Under the pieces are notes generated by a model. The model saw nothing but the letters and a program-made list of their open reading frames with translations, was not told the DNA's origin and searched no databases. A stretch of DNA of 63,257 nt, filler included, from Kipferlia bialata (Eukaryota): NCBI GenBank assembly GCA_003568945.1. It is 4 parts of 4 records of this genome, joined end to end, with 100 filler letters (N's around TTAATTAATTAA, not from the genome) between each part and the next. Parts side by side here need not be neighbours in the genome. Positions count along the whole stretch, not along the records: positions 1 to 15,766 come from BDIP01000671.1; positions 15,867 to 31,601 come from BDIP01000672.1; positions 31,702 to 47,429 come from BDIP01000673.1; positions 47,530 to 63,257 come from BDIP01000674.1. One strand, written 5' to 3'. Made by a program: the position numbers and the translations under genes. Below are positions 10,557-63,202 of the stretch, one piece after another (within the stretch, counting starts at the first letter, position 1; every line of letters begins with the position of its first letter).

Positions 10557-10584
10557 CTAGTAGTCATAGTCTCTGAACACCATG

Positions 10585-10623
<39 letters not shown>

Positions 10624-10780
10624 AGTAGTCATAGTCTCTGAACACCATGACTCTCTCTCTCTCCCCCTCTCTCTCTCTCACTCTCTCTAGTAGTCATAGT
10701 CTCTGAACACCATGACTCTCTCTCTCTCCCCCCCTCTCTCTCTCACTCTCTCTAGTAGTCATAGTCTCTGAACACCATGA
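10557..10780 (-). repeat. Four copies (65-nt period) of the last 29 nt of the nitrilase CDS including the stop codon, separated by (CT)n
   Basis: CTAGTAGTCATAGTCTCTGAACACCATGA starts at 10557, 10622, 10687 and 10752. The last copy is the true coding end (MVFRDYDY*). Confidence 0.9.
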
Positions 10781-13700
10781 TGCCCATGTTGTACACTGAC
10801 CCAGAGGCAGATGTCTTGGTGAAGCCATTGCCAGTCTGGATCCAGGAGTCAGCCACGTAGTCACTGGGTGAGAGAGTGTGCATATATGTATACACCCATT
10901 TTTAACTATACTATAGCTAGTATAATACAATTAATATACATATATATATATATGTGTGTGTGTGTGTCTGACTGGATCCAGGAATCAGCCACGTAGTCAC
11001 AGGGGATTAGATATGGAGTGATCACCAGTGAATGTAGTGTGTATCATCAATAGGATGGATGCATATACATTTATAAATACATATACATATACCTGCTAAG
11101 GTCTGCGTCGAATGCCATGATGTCCCAGTCATAGAAGACAGGGGCAGAGTATATACTATTGTATACATACATACACTATATATATAAACTATGTGTACTC
11201 TCTATACCTGCTGAGGTCTGCATCAAACGCCATGATGTCCCAGTCATAGAAGACAGGGGCAGAGTATGTGTCGGTGGTGTCTGGATCACTAGGCTCAGAG
11301 TCTACAGTCACCACAATGGGTACGTCACTGCCCTTGGGGACACTCTCCACGGCCATCGAGTAGGGACCCAGGAAGCCTAGCGTTAGTGTATATATATATA
11401 TATATATAGAGGGAGAGAGAGACAGAGAGAGAAGGAGAGAGAGAGAGAGAGAGAGAGATGCAGCCATCGAGTAGGGGCCCAGGAAGCCTGGGGTGTTAGT
11501 GTAAATGAGTGTATAAATGTATATATAGAGTAGGGGCCGAGGAAGCCTGTGTCAGGTGGAAACATGGTATAGGAAGGAATATTACAACATACACTACACA
11601 ATTCACACCTGTGTCTGTGTCCTTCCAGCCAGTCATATATCCTATATTCACTATATATACCCCATATACACAGTATACAGAGAATATATCTGATACCTGT
11701 ATCCGTGTCCTTCCAGCCACTCCATATATACAATGTTCACTATATATACTATGCACACTCTACAAGTCAATACATATCTATATAAGTCAATATATATATA
11801 TATATAATATACATAATGTACATATATATATATATCATACAATTCACACCTGTGTCCGTGTCCTTCCAGCCACTCATATATCCTATGTTCACTATATACA
11901 TACCTACAGAAAATACAGAATATAGAGTGTATAACTGATACCTGTGTCCGTGTCCTTCCAGCCACTCATCTCCACCTTGAGTGTGCTGAACTTGCCATAG
12001 TCCTCATACAGCATGACACCTATGGTTATAGAGGATACTGAGAAAGAGGGTATCATACAGCATGACGCCTGACATAAGGGGTCTAGAGGGATAGAGAGAG
12101 ATATGCGGTATTTAGAGAGAAGGAGAGACAAGGGATAGTCCTCATGCAGCATGACGCCTAGGGTTATGAGGGGGGTGAAGAGGGAGATAGAGAGATATAT
12201 AGGCTAGTCCTCATACAACATGACGCCTATGGTTATAAGGGGTCTAGAGGGAGAGAGAGAGACATGGGCTATATAGGGAGAAAGAAAGAGAGTAGTCTTC
12301 ATACAGCATGACGCCTGATGTTATAGAGGATAGTGAGAAAGGAAGAGAGATAGAGGGTATCATAGAGCATGACACCCATGGTTATGATGGGGTTCTAGAG
12401 AGAGAGTGAGAGAGTCTGGAGGAGGGAGAGAGAGTATATGCGTACCCTGGTCATTGAAGACTGGACTGCAGTCGTTGTTGGGGGACCCATAGCCTGGGCA
12501 GGGGACAACGGCACACATCAGAGAGGTGAAGCTGGGGTGAGGGTATACGAATGTACACTGCATACAGATGAATAGTCTATATAATGTAAAGACAGGATAA
12601 TACATATGTAAGCACAAATTGAATACCCACCCGTCTGGGGATGCCTCTGAGCCAGGTGAGGGCAGGACAAAGGGTATCAGCACGAAGGGGACCTGGTCAT
12701 CGGGCTGCTTGTCTGGGGGTTAGCGGCATGCATACGCCACTGTAATAATACCTAGTCACACACAGACCCAACACTTGCTCACCAGATAGACATGGTAATT
12801 CACACGCACACACGCACACACATACATATATATGTATTGGGAGAAAGAAAGAGAGAGAGAGAGATAGTACTCCACCTGCTGCCTGGAACTGGTATGTGGC
12901 CTCACATGTGAACTCTGTGACACCAGTGTAGAAGTCGACACCTGGGTAAGATACCACTAGATACAACTATATGTATACGTATACACATGATAACAGTGTG
13001 GAAGTCAACGCCTGGGGGTGAGGACGGCATCACTATAAGCATAAGTATATATATGTTTCCTGATGAATAATGTATGTACCTGGTGCAGACACCACCGTCC
13101 CGTCCTGGGGCATGTGCACACAGGGCACAGGCAGGTTGAAGCTGGGGGGTGAGGCGGAGATACACTCCATACATATACTATACCATCATTGAAAACAAAG
13201 AGAGCGACATGCACTACATAGGAGTGTGTGGTTAATCAAGTATATATACATTTATAAATATAGATACCGCTGCACTCACGTTGGGTCCATCCAGCCGAGG
13301 CCACATGCCTCCAGCTCAGCCCCCTTCACTAGGGTGTCGGCAGGGACAGCGTTGAGGGCATCGTTGGGGGAGACATACACGCCCTGGTACTCCTCCTGGG
13401 CGTGAGGGGGGTATACTATACATACACATCTTACATACTGTTAGGATATACATATTAATCGGCCATATATCTATATACATCTATATACACACACTCACCA
13501 TGGGGTTCTTGTAGTTGACCCTCTTCTTGATCCTGGGTAGCTCAGCAGATGTCATGAAGACACCGCTGGAGACAGAGGCATCGAACCACAGGTCAAGGAC
13601 GCGGCCTTGTATAAGAGTATCTAACAGCAAATTTAGAGAGAGAGAGAGAGAGTCATCGAACCAATGATTGTGAATACCATGTCTGTAGCTAGGTATACAC

Positions 13701-15402
13701 TACAAGAACACACACTCACCGAGGCTGAATATGCCGCCCCCTCCCTTCATGTTGTCCCTGTCGATGGTGTTGGCCATGACTACATTCAGCTGCAGGGCGC
13801 GGGAGGCACCTGGGGGTAAGAGTGTGGAAATGTACTTATAAAAGAGGGAGGGAGACAGAGAGAGAGAGACCACATGCACCTGCCCATCTATATTCATGTC
13901 TATATACATTCGTCTAAATATATATCAGGGTATGATATGTATAAAAATTAATATATATATATATATATACATATCATACCCTGTGCCAGCTGTGCTGCTG
14001 TCCCTAGCAGAGCTAACCAACTAACACACACACTCTCTCTCTGTCATATATATAGATATACACATATACAAACACATACCCTGTGCGAGCTGTGCCGCTG
14101 TCCCTAGCAGGGGAGGGAGGTTGGAGAAGGCGGTCTGGAACAGGATGTTGTAGATGCCCTGGGGTGAATATATTTACACAAAGTATACTATATACAAATA
14201 ATTATATGTGTGTACGTGTACGATATAAATACATATATATATATACCTTCTCGTAGTATGTGCCGAGGGGCTCTGAGTACTGGATGTCTGCACATATCAC
14301 TATGCCAAACTCAGTGCCCCTGAGCCTATGGAGTGAGCAGGGGGAGAGACACACTGTACTAGAACCGACGTACTACACACACCAACACAAGCATATGCAT
14401 CACACAACACTTCAATATCCTTCATGTACGATCTATCCTTCTATCTACACATACTCAGAGATATAGATGTCTATTTATACATACATAACTATATATATAT
14501 ACATATATCCCGTACTTGAAGTGCTGTGCGTCTGGGGTCTCTGGCTGGGACAGCACTGCACCGGTGCCACTCACATGGCTCTTGCGGTACCGGATCTAGA
14601 GGGTCAGCATACAGACACTACTACACTCACATCACCTGAACACCATATATTGCACATTCCCTAACTGGGGTATACCTGAATCTCCCCGTCTCCGATGAGC
14701 ACGGCTGTGTTGTACAGAGTGTCATCATCAACATACTCTAGCACATTGGTCAGTACCCACATACTGAGGTGAGAGGGAGTGAGGGTGTGACGTGCAAGCG
14801 TGTACACAGTATTACGTACTCGTTGTCGTTTGACGTCTGACACGCCCATGCCAACTGGTTGCCACTGTCTAGGAGGGTGTCCTCACTGGCACTCTGGATA
14901 GATGCACAGGACTGGTGGGGGGTGACCACAGAGGAATAGGACTGGGGTATGAGAGAGGGGGGAGAGAGAGAGAGAGAGAGACTGGTGGGGGGTGACTACG
15001 GACGCATAGGCCTTAGGGGGTTAGAAGGGAAGGCAGTGAAGGAGAGAGAGAGAGACTATAGAGAGGCAAAGGACTCGTGACTACTGAGGTATATGACTGG
15101 GGTCAGAGAGAGAGGGGAGAGGCAAAGAACTGGGGGTCTGAGAATATACAATTATAGATATAGAGACTGAGAAAGAGAGAGACAGAGAGGGAGAGTACCT
15201 TGAGGCTCTGTCTGAGGTATGCAATGTCCATACTGATCTCGGCATAGTGGTCCAGGGCCTTCATCCACCCATTCACACCCTGGGGTGAGACAAAAGAGGT
15301 ACACTAGTATATGTATGTGGGGGCATATACATGCTAAAGTGTATACCTCTGGTAGCACCACGAGGTCTCTGGCCTGCTGGCCTGCCATGGACATGGTGTC
15401 AC
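10752..15402 (-). CDS. Carbon-nitrogen hydrolase (nitrilase superfamily, vanin/biotinidase-like) with long C-terminal extension; 5' end lost at contig linker
   Basis: Spliced exons give the Glu-Lys-Cys catalytic triad: DLVVLPE, LYNTAVLI..IRYRKSH, EFGIVICADIQY. Also NVVMAN..GGGIFS. Ends MVFRDYDY* at 10752. Confidence 0.8.
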
Positions 15403-62228: not shown

Positions 62229-62276
<48 letters not shown>

Positions 62277-62454
62277 CTCACTCTAGACCAAGCTGTGCTC
62301 TGCTGTCATTGCTTCTCTCTCTCTCTCTCTCTCTAGCCCTCTCTCTCTAGCCCCCTCTCTCATTCCAGGCCATGTTGTGCTCTGCTGTCCTTGCTTCTAC
62401 CTCTCTCTCTCTCTCTCTCTCATCCTAATATGTAGACTCATCCTATTATATATG

Positions 62455-62494
<40 letters not shown>

Positions 62495-63202
62495 CTCACC
62501 CTAGGCCATGCTGTGCTCTGCTGTCCTTGCTGCTGAGAAGTTGGTACCTGCACTGTGCCTCTATCTGTACAGGTATCCTCTCTCTCTCTAGCCACACCAG
62601 TCAGTTCATGTCTCCCTCTCCCTCTCCCTCTCTCTCTATTCATATGTATACTGTGTCTCTCCCCGGCCACATCTCCCAGTTTATGTATCCCTTTCTCTCT
62701 CTCTCTAGATGAAGTCATATTCCCATCTAATACCAGCCACACCTCCCAGTTCATGTCTGGCCACCCCATATCAGTCAGTCAGACGGTCGGGGTATTATCC
62801 CTGATTCTACAGGTATACTTGTAGTCATACATGTGTTATGGATGTATTCATTTATGGATGCTACATATATCAGACGGTCGGGGTACTATCCCTGTATCTG
62901 CAGGTACATATATATATATATATATACTTGTATATATACATGTATTTAAATATGTATCAATTGTATCAGTCAGTCAGACGGTCGGGGTGCTGTCCCTCAT
63001 CCTCCAGGTATATGTATTCTTTTATATGTGAATATATTGAGACCTCACTGCCTAAGCTTATGTTTCTGTCTATATTCAATCTCATTTATACTTCGAATTT
63101 CTTTGTCTTGAGCTTGTTTGTTGTCTGACGTCAGCTCACCACCATTGTACGGCGTTTCTTCAGGATATCGGCCCCTGCTGCCCTGTCCCTCTTGCACCAG
63201 AG
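52989..63202 (+). CDS. Very large, intron-rich hypothetical protein (helical, possibly HEAT-like, with acidic/ER-rich loops); continues beyond window
   Basis: More than 25 small GT-AG exons with amphipathic-helix translations (VGLAFFDIVLYLILR, EAYVEYALMVLLSVR, VCSLVLRLITLV, SVFEALVIALVPLL). No family recognised. Confidence 0.6.

What the first reader, a model, noticed from the sequence alone, without database searches (positions are those of the whole stretch)
10557..63010. Window-wide 'exon echo' system: partial exon copies in introns that diverge almost only at synonymous sites
Seen: in at least six genes (first gene, nitrilase, Cys-rich gene, DAW1, rSAM, last gene), introns carry 1-5 truncated copies of the adjacent exon boundary, separated by microsatellite filler. 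Upstream copies are branch point+AG+exon start; downstream copies are exon end+GT. In six hand-aligned, hand-picked pairs (11.1k, 18.9k, 39.2k, 40.2k, 57.6k, 62.8k), 30 of 32 differing codons are synonymous, including Leu TTG/CTG and TTA/CTG. Established: a dead duplicate should accumulate mostly amino-acid-changing substitutions. Inference: the echoes evolved under coding constraint. Either they are captured from divergent alleles by unequal crossover or template switching, or they exchange with the live exon by deletion or conversion between repeats, since collapsing a repeat restores an intact gene. This would be an intron-growth and exon-renewal process that I do not recognise as described. 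Some echoes (20.1k, 38.9k, 55.2k) do show replacement changes.
Basis: partly seen in the sequence, partly recalled or inferred. Interest (0 to 1): 0.92.

Follow-up and report, generated by a model that had tools for sequence, protein, structure and literature searches.

The report
Introns hoard other alleles' exon ends
In this intron-rich single-celled eukaryote, about half the introns of six genes hold short cut-off copies of the neighbouring exon end that differ from the working exon mostly at silent codon positions, far more than a dead copy should, so they are likely leftovers of recombination with divergent alleles, which would point to hidden sex in a group where none has been seen.

Summary
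Confirmed, with a smaller number. Six hand-built gene models read through without stops. An automatic scan finds 93 truncated exon-end copies ('echoes') at 57 boundaries, in 43 of 89 introns and on all four scaffolds joined in this window; 1 hit in 1126 control pairs. Unbiased, 115 of 160 differences are silent (72%, not 94%); pN/pS 0.13 (0.08-0.19). Dead copies simulated through the same scoring give 0.39-0.56. Echoes differ from each other silently too, keep GT (38 of 38) and AG (39 of 46), yet the intron beyond is mostly unrelated (56 of 79). In the one gene with read support, full-depth DNA contigs bridge echo and exon with no second haplotype, and a spliced contig uses only the live exons. 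So echoes are real, dead today, but diverged while coding. Best reading (0.6): scars of recombination with divergent alleles, alignable only in exons. The host is a fornicate (Kipferlia-like), a group lacking NHEJ and Rad51A. Not a functional system; a likely record of cryptic recombination. The scan noted similar copies in sea-urchin and fungal DNA; the large sea-urchin set fitted dead copies.

The parts
290..1695 (+). First gene (3' part, 6 exons); echoes at 653-680, 910-944, 1087-1107
10752..15402 (-). Nitrilase/vanin-like gene, 17 modelled exons, 520 aa unbroken (family name from recalled motifs; exon pieces gave no Pfam CN-hydrolase hit)
10526..10780 (-). Stop-codon array: last 29 coding nt plus AG-rich filler, 65-bp unit, 3 echoes identical to the live end
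10972..11152 (-). Echoes 10972-10999 (exon start) and 11093-11152 (60-nt exon end, 4 silent, 0 replacement)
11463..11877 (-). Intron with three exon-end echoes (11609-11877) and two exon-start echoes (11463-11546)
12053..12375 (-). Five exon-start echoes before exon 12019-11942
13644..15702 (-). Further nitrilase echoes: 13644-13663, 13980-14010, 14980-15010, 15471-15702 (three)
15899..20038 (+). Cys-rich gene, 13 modelled exons; echoes 16176-16314, 16632-16804, 17275-17303, 17430-17450, 17645-17886, 18462-18489, 19035-19182, 19322-19415, 19607-19651
20104..20376 (+). Three copies of the Cys-rich gene's last codons downstream of its stop, each followed by unrelated DNA; the sequence shows each running to a stop codon (TAA, TAA, TAG)
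20710..20745 (+). 36-nt exact copy of a putative start-codon region (ATG at 20873), 160 nt upstream of it
   Evidence: gene not modelled
37113..41821 (-). WD40 gene (DAW1-like; name recalled, WD40 by Pfam), 17 modelled exons; spliced contig matches live exons
37982..38925 (-). DAW1 exon-start echoes 37982-38019, 38070-38090, 38768-38800, 38893-38925
38997..39169 (-). Two exon-end echoes of exon 39293-39219 (4 and 7 silent, 0 replacement)
39337..41221 (-). DAW1 echoes 39337-39360, 39426-39453, 39709-39735, 40026-40133, 40193-40235, 40433-40573, 40888-41108, 41207-41221
47598..51051 (+). Radical-SAM/SPASM-like gene (name recalled), 13 modelled exons; echoes 48263-48276, 48869-48931, 49169-49190
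52989..63202 (+). Last gene, 29 modelled exons, 1028 aa unbroken; 30 echoes between 53671 and 63007
57742..57777 (+). Exon-end echo, 5 silent and 0 replacement in 36 nt
57842..58459 (+). Two exon-start and three exon-end echoes of exon 58010-58087, mosaic for silent variants, each donor followed by different intron sequence
62148..63007 (+). Echo clusters 62148-62395, 62592-62686, 62870-63007 (62964: 6 silent, 0 replacement)

Best explanation
The echoes are spliced-out copies of exon ends whose differences from the working exon are mostly silent, and they are likely scars of recombination with a divergent homologous chromosome (another allele, or a hybrid partner genome) that could pair only within exons. 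Shown: tandem structure, silent excess, intact splice signals, mostly unrelated flanking intron, exclusion from the main mRNA in one gene, no second haplotype in the strain there. Inferred: a break or strand exchange inside an exon copies the homolog's exon end, splice site and ~75 nt of its unalignable intron; the strand cannot re-anneal there and is end-joined to the resident exon stub, which stays as the echo. Only events that run past the splice site (or stop/start) restore a whole exon and survive. Later unequal exchanges between echo and live copy on different alleles add copies with the same breakpoint and new silent variants. The first donor and last acceptor are used, so echoes are inert and then decay neutrally. 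The data imply allelic silent divergence near 0.15-0.2 and about a tenth or less of the divergence accrued while dead.
For: pN/pS 0.127, 0.11-0.16 across kappa 1-8, P about 1e-16 against 0.5; bootstrap over 57 boundaries 0.08-0.19, one echo per boundary 77:27, relaxed scoring 0.19; 0.175 after removing 8 echoes at hand-picked boundaries. Dead-copy simulations 0.39-0.56 (minimum 0.30 of 125); allele models with 3-10% dead time 0.12-0.16. Echo-versus-echo 45:33, ratio 0.22; direction symmetric; third-position GC kept. Changes in a nearer echo where a farther one equals live: 15 silent of 23, neutral share 0.24, P 3e-5; replacements look random by BLOSUM (-0.40 vs -0.44). GT kept 38 of 38, AG 39 of 46 while flanks match controls in 56 of 79, also in zero-difference echoes. 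113 of 126 near repeats are exon-echo or echo-echo and only 3 of the other 13 are intron-only. Splice-side half 62:8, break-side 40:24. No paralog or second haplotype laid on DAW1 at 85%. Fornicates lack NHEJ and Rad51A and carry two Dmc1 (PMC8516963 section 8); failed SDSA plus end joining makes tandem duplications (PMC8654963 section 12).
Against: No second isolate or allele was found, so allelic diversity and unalignable allelic introns are untested. The strain looks homozygous in the 3.3 kb tested. The Cys-rich gene (11:10, P 0.11), gene-end echoes (3:5, P 0.5) and rSAM (0:1) do not reject the dead-copy null. 10 of 79 flanks are clearly homologous, one beside an echo with 7 silent changes, so simple tandem amplification also acts. 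Nearest echoes are not closer to live than farther ones (pS 0.18 vs 0.16). The replacement gradient was reached by edge effects in 13 of 200 simulations. Dispersion and pS-pN correlation did not discriminate models. Junction microhomology was not established. Origin by aborted repair cannot be told from an old duplication refreshed by allelic exchange.
Confidence: 0.6

Rival explanations
1. Echoes are under direct selection because they are used: a minor splice route, transcriptional skipping between repeats, or frequent DNA collapse puts echo sequence into protein.
For: Splice signals as strong as live ones (donor 10.7 vs 10.3, acceptor 8.3 vs 9.0); constraint strongest next to the splice site. 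Contigs drop rare isoforms.
Against: The spliced contig matches live exons with 0 other letters in 8 listed pieces, including exons whose echoes differ. No complementary splice site at the broken end (0 of 39, 2 of 48); an in-register AG|GT in 7 of 93 only. Collapse frequent enough for selection would remove echoes before 17% silent divergence builds up (inference).
Confidence: 0.13
2. One past hybrid or polyploid phase, not ongoing outcrossing: echoes are scars of homeologous recombination between two parental genomes, one since lost.
For: Silent divergence is about homogeneous across echoes (chi2 106 on 92 df); flanks unrelated; no donor copy left in the strain.
Against: Arrays hold more than two silent versions, with private variants and one triallelic site; 27 of 93 echoes are identical to live.
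Confidence: 0.12
3. Ordinary dead tandem duplicates in a clonal lineage, with or without conversion from the adjacent exon; the silent excess comes from selection on the live copy, mutation bias or detection bias.
For: Young identical arrays exist (10526-10780); some genes fit this null; an earlier scan note reached this verdict for a sea-urchin gene (43 of 107 silent; unchecked).
Against: Five dead-copy settings including strong transition, AT and CpG bias gave means 0.39-0.56, never under 0.30; private echo changes are silent-rich under either age order (15:8 and 13:13 against a neutral share of 0.24); echoes keep exon GC (0.55) while adjoining intron homology is gone.
Confidence: 0.08
4. 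Assembly artefact: haplotypes or strains concatenated through microsatellites.
For: Short-read style assembly with gaps; the DNA run may be the assembly's own source; only one gene has read support.
Against: Separately assembled contigs at uniform depth 422-516 bridge echo and live exon with 0 differences and no alternative letters; echoes start mid-exon after filler, a junction neither allele would hold; up to five versions per boundary.
Confidence: 0.03

Closest known systems
Human F7 intron 7 37-bp VNTR spanning the exon-intron boundary (PMC1557585, abstract read)
   Same: Tandem copies of an exon end and donor site inside the intron; the pseudo-donors are intact but silent, the most upstream one is used.
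   Different: One locus, whole-unit near-identical repeats. Here about half the introns of six genes, acceptors and gene ends as well, unrelated filler, and a strong silent bias.
Tandem duplications from failed SDSA joined by polymerase theta (C. elegans helq-1; PMC8654963, passages and section 12 read)
   Same: Copying from a homologous template followed by end joining yields a direct duplication of ~100 bp upward.
   Different: There the template is identical, sizes reach 10 kb and sites are not exon-anchored. Here the copies differ like alleles and end at coding boundaries. Junction microhomology was not shown here.
Heterogeneous duplications joining two alleles on one chromosome (mosquito ace-1; PMC6121789, abstract read)
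   Same: Divergent alleles placed in tandem, so copies differ from birth.
   Different: Whole genes, both expressed, selected, rare. Here 13-60 nt dead exon stubs, common, no benefit shown.
Intron gain by tandem genomic duplication and tandem exon duplication (PMC4974935, search listing only; Rogers model recalled)
   Same: Internal duplication of sequence containing splice signals alters intron length.
   Different: No new intron or alternative exon is made; no echo is a whole exon and broken ends lack a splice site.

Membership tests
Boundary-spanning minisatellite (F7 type) | Repeat unit spans exon-intron boundary with intact pseudo splice sites | tested here: met
   GT 38 of 38, AG 39 of 46
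Boundary-spanning minisatellite (F7 type) | Whole unit, intron part included, is homologous between copies | tested here: not met
   10 of 79 flanks homologous, 56 of 79 at control level
Boundary-spanning minisatellite (F7 type) | Only the exon-proximal site is used | tested here: met
   one gene, one spliced contig
Dead (pseudoexon) duplicate | pN/pS about 0.5 against the live exon | tested here: not met
   0.13 overall; Cys-rich gene and gene-end echoes do not reject it
Mutually exclusive or duplicated exon | Complete exon with both splice sites, present in mRNA | tested here: not met
   at most 71% of the exon; 0 of 39 and 2 of 48 complementary sites; absent from the contig
Heterogeneous (allele-joining) duplication | Copies differ as constrained alleles do | tested here: met
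Heterogeneous (allele-joining) duplication | Each copy matches an allele segregating in the population | not testable with these tools
   no second isolate found
SDSA/TMEJ tandem duplication | Microhomology or templated insertion at the junction | tested here: inconclusive
   junctions viewed; original ends cannot be placed because fillers lack homology
SDSA/TMEJ tandem duplication | Dependence on polymerase theta and HR factors | not testable with these tools
   genetics needed; no genome held

The most novel reading that the evidence does not exclude
In this fornicate, exon ends are routinely replaced by Dmc1-driven exchange with highly divergent alleles; each imprecise event parks the displaced exon end in the intron. 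Introns grow ~100 nt per event, and a single homozygous genome stores thousands of fossil alleles, giving a direct read-out of population diversity and cryptic sex in Metamonada.
Probability: 0.45. Interest if true: 0.92.

Novelty: new variant of a known kind. Interest (0 to 1): 0.8.

Why it matters
[quoted passage not shown] A silent excess this strong in dead copies is hard to obtain in a clonal lineage, so the echoes would be evidence of recombination between divergent chromosomes readable from one genome, with an estimate of allelic diversity. They also give a mechanism of intron growth (median 104 nt without echo, 227 with one, 322 with two), a possible genomic signature of repair without NHEJ and Rad51A, and dozens of natural competing splice-site pairs for testing how this spliceosome picks the first donor and last acceptor. 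They will also mislead gene prediction.

Tried and rejected
No whole genome is held, so the genome-wide ratio was not computed. No RNA holder is on record; X2 is RNA by guess, though its contig skips introns at CT..AC ends. Read support exists for one gene only (37100-40380); the other five models rest on unbroken frames and splice motifs. Table 8 showed 16 of 984 pieces. No close relative: best protein hit 51%, best of 80 metagenome loci 48%; those loci were not used. Pfam on single exons confirmed WD40 only; 7 exon pieces of the nitrilase, rSAM and Cys-rich genes gave no relevant family. Rejected: echoes as mini-exons; repair by a second in-register splice (7 of 93); whole-intron duplication (by inspection of the complex introns, exon-end echoes come before exon-start echoes); mutation bias; chronological treadmill. 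Overdispersion and pS-pN correlation had too little power. Literature searches showed no description of this pattern in their listings; the library lacks most subscription papers, and supplements of the genome papers were not read.
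Full report
Setting. The window is eukaryotic DNA in four scaffolds of 15,766, 15,735, 15,728 and 15,728 bases joined by N-linkers, so it samples four loci that need not be neighbours. 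The best hit of its phosphoserine aminotransferase exon is Dysnectes brevis at 51%, with Anaeramoeba and Chilomastix also listed: a metamonad, probably a fornicate. Kipferlia bialata is described as the one intron-rich fornicate, 124,912 introns in 51 Mb (PMC5874029 section 12), so Kipferlia or a near relative is the likely host; this is inference. That paper's main text has no occurrence of 'duplicat', 'heterozyg' or 'ploid'; I read its abstract, passages and section 12, not its supplements.

Observation. I built six gene models by hand from splice motifs; all read without internal stops. Ungapped comparison of each exon with its adjacent introns gave 84 hits in 178 pairs, against 1 in 1126 pairs with introns of other genes (a subset of all such pairs). 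With gene-end flanks there are 93 echoes at 57 boundaries; 43 of 89 introns carry one or more. The exon part is 13-60 nt (median 28), never more than 71% of the exon; spacing is median 103 nt; each echo adds about 110 nt to the intron. A scan that ignores gene models found 126 near direct repeats; 113 are exon-echo or echo-echo, and of the other 13, by inspection 8 are longer echo units, 2 lie at a putative gene start (20.6-20.9 kb) and 3 are intron-only. Echo density follows dinucleotide-repeat content (rho 0.87 over 32 bins), and long gene-bearing tracts have none.

Not an artefact, and not expressed, in the gene tested. On 37100-40380, contigs of DNA run X1 at depth 422-516 bridge echoes and live exons with no other letters and no gaps in the 8 pieces listed, and no alternative letter is listed at 85% likeness. 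X1 may be the assembly's source, and contigs hide rare variants. A 1417-nt contig of X2 lies on live exons only, with 0 other letters in 8 listed pieces, skips introns at CT..AC ends and leaves echo bins at depth 0.

Silent bias. Of 160 mismatches, 110 fall on third positions and 25 each on first and second; 107 codons are silent, 42 replacement, 1 stop. pN/pS is 0.127 (0.11-0.16 for kappa 1-8; P about 1e-16 against the 0.5 expected for one neutral and one fully constrained copy). It stays low with repeated changes counted once (0.15), ends trimmed (0.11), one echo per boundary (0.12), relaxed scoring (0.19), bootstrap by boundary (0.08-0.19), and without the 8 echoes at hand-picked boundaries (0.175; 0.255 in the harshest setting, P 3e-4). 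Dead copies simulated through the same scoring under five settings gave 0.39-0.56, minimum 0.30 in 125 runs; allele models with 3-10% dead time gave 0.12-0.16. Against: the Cys-rich gene (11:10), gene-end echoes (3:5) and rSAM (0:1) do not reject the null.

Whose history is it. If only the live copy were changing, echoes would differ from each other neutrally or in nested order. Echo-echo differences are 45 silent to 33 replacement (ratio 0.22; pairs not independent), direction is symmetric and third-position GC is kept. In arrays, sites where a nearer echo differs but a farther one equals live are 15 silent to 8 (neutral share 0.24, P 3e-5); only-farther sites 13 to 13; shared 13 to 1; one site has three silent states. 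Replacements score like random changes (BLOSUM -0.40 vs -0.44), as neutral decay after death would. So most silent divergence predates death and several distinct coding versions were sampled.

Where homology stops. Donor dinucleotides are kept in 38 of 38 and acceptor AG in 39 of 46 echoes that reach the boundary, with scores close to the live sites. Beyond the signal, 45-nt flanks are 0.62 identical against 0.58 for unrelated introns; 56 of 79 are at control level and 10 of 79 clearly homologous, unrelated to exon-part divergence (rho 0.07). Exon parts average 94.6% identity. This is the profile of two functional alleles or orthologs, not of a decaying duplicate. The splice-side half is 62:8 and the break-side half 40:24 (Fisher P 0.0005); edge effects reached the replacement gradient in 13 of 200 simulations and the silent gradient in 0 of 200. 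Stop and start regions are echoed too, so the anchor is the coding boundary and not splicing as such.

Mechanism (inferred). Alleles that match in exons but not in slippage-prone introns can recombine only within exons. An end that invades an exon and copies past its boundary carries foreign intron that cannot anneal, and joining it to the resident stub yields live end, filler, echo. Failed SDSA joined by polymerase theta gives tandem duplications in C. elegans (PMC8654963, passages and section 12). Metamonads lack NHEJ, and fornicates lost Rad51A and have two Dmc1 (PMC8516963 section 8); Dmc1 stabilises mismatched joints (PMC6719624, abstract summary only). Unequal exchange between echo and live copy on different alleles then explains shared breakpoints with new silent variants. 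An old duplication refreshed by such exchange gives the same signature, and I cannot separate the two. Both need divergent chromosomes to meet, and no donor remains in the strain at the locus tested. Intact pseudo-donors that stay silent have a precedent in human F7 (PMC1557585, abstract); use of the last acceptor suggests exon definition (inference).

Novelty. The parts are known: boundary-spanning repeats, repair-born duplications, allele-joining duplications (PMC6121789, abstract). I saw no description of their combination at this density or with this constraint in the listings of nine searches. Earlier scan notes report junction copies in sea-urchin and fungal DNA; the large set there was 43 of 107 silent and judged ordinary, unlike 115 of 160 here. 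Verdict: real, unexpected, likely a new variant of known processes that makes cryptic recombination in a metamonad testable. Names DAW1, nitrilase and rSAM are recalled from motifs; only WD40 was confirmed.

Noticed in passing
window 15767-15866, 31602-31701, 47430-47529: Linkers of 44 N, a 12-base stop-rich motif and 44 N join four scaffolds of nearly equal, descending length; adjacency across them means nothing.
   Followed up: yes
window 2760-9500, 21000-36600, 42000-47400: Intron-bearing genes with few dinucleotide repeats and no echoes, next to echo-rich genes; two kinds of gene or chromosome region.
   Followed up: partly
window 48811 and echo 48869-48893: GC-AG intron in the rSAM-like gene; the echo keeps the GC donor.
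   Followed up: partly
acceptors throughout; 13605 (-), 60171 (+): Branch point and AG appear fused (consensus CTCACCCCAG); two modelled acceptors are AAG.
   Followed up: partly
window 62592-62613: Echo has Ser AGT where the live exon has Ser TCC, a three-base switch between serine codon classes.
   Followed up: no
window 19024-19085: This exon-end echo is preceded by a pyrimidine tract and TAG and could be a 51-nt in-frame extra exon; its acceptor did not pass the score threshold.
   Followed up: partly
window 39337-39360 (-), 13644-13663 (-): Copies of mid-exon sequence upstream of the exon that do not reach the acceptor.
   Followed up: no
window 22459-23845: Phosphoserine aminotransferase, GC3 0.86, few introns; hits are other metamonads and Firmicutes at 45-51%, possibly an old lateral transfer.
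   Followed up: partly
window 51472-52540 and 52989 onward: A ribosomal L1-domain ORF (Pfam PF00687) precedes the last gene across a poly-C tract; whether they are one gene was not tested.
   Followed up: no
window 24105-26450 (-): Two-domain AAA ATPase, nearly intron-free, no echoes.
   Followed up: partly
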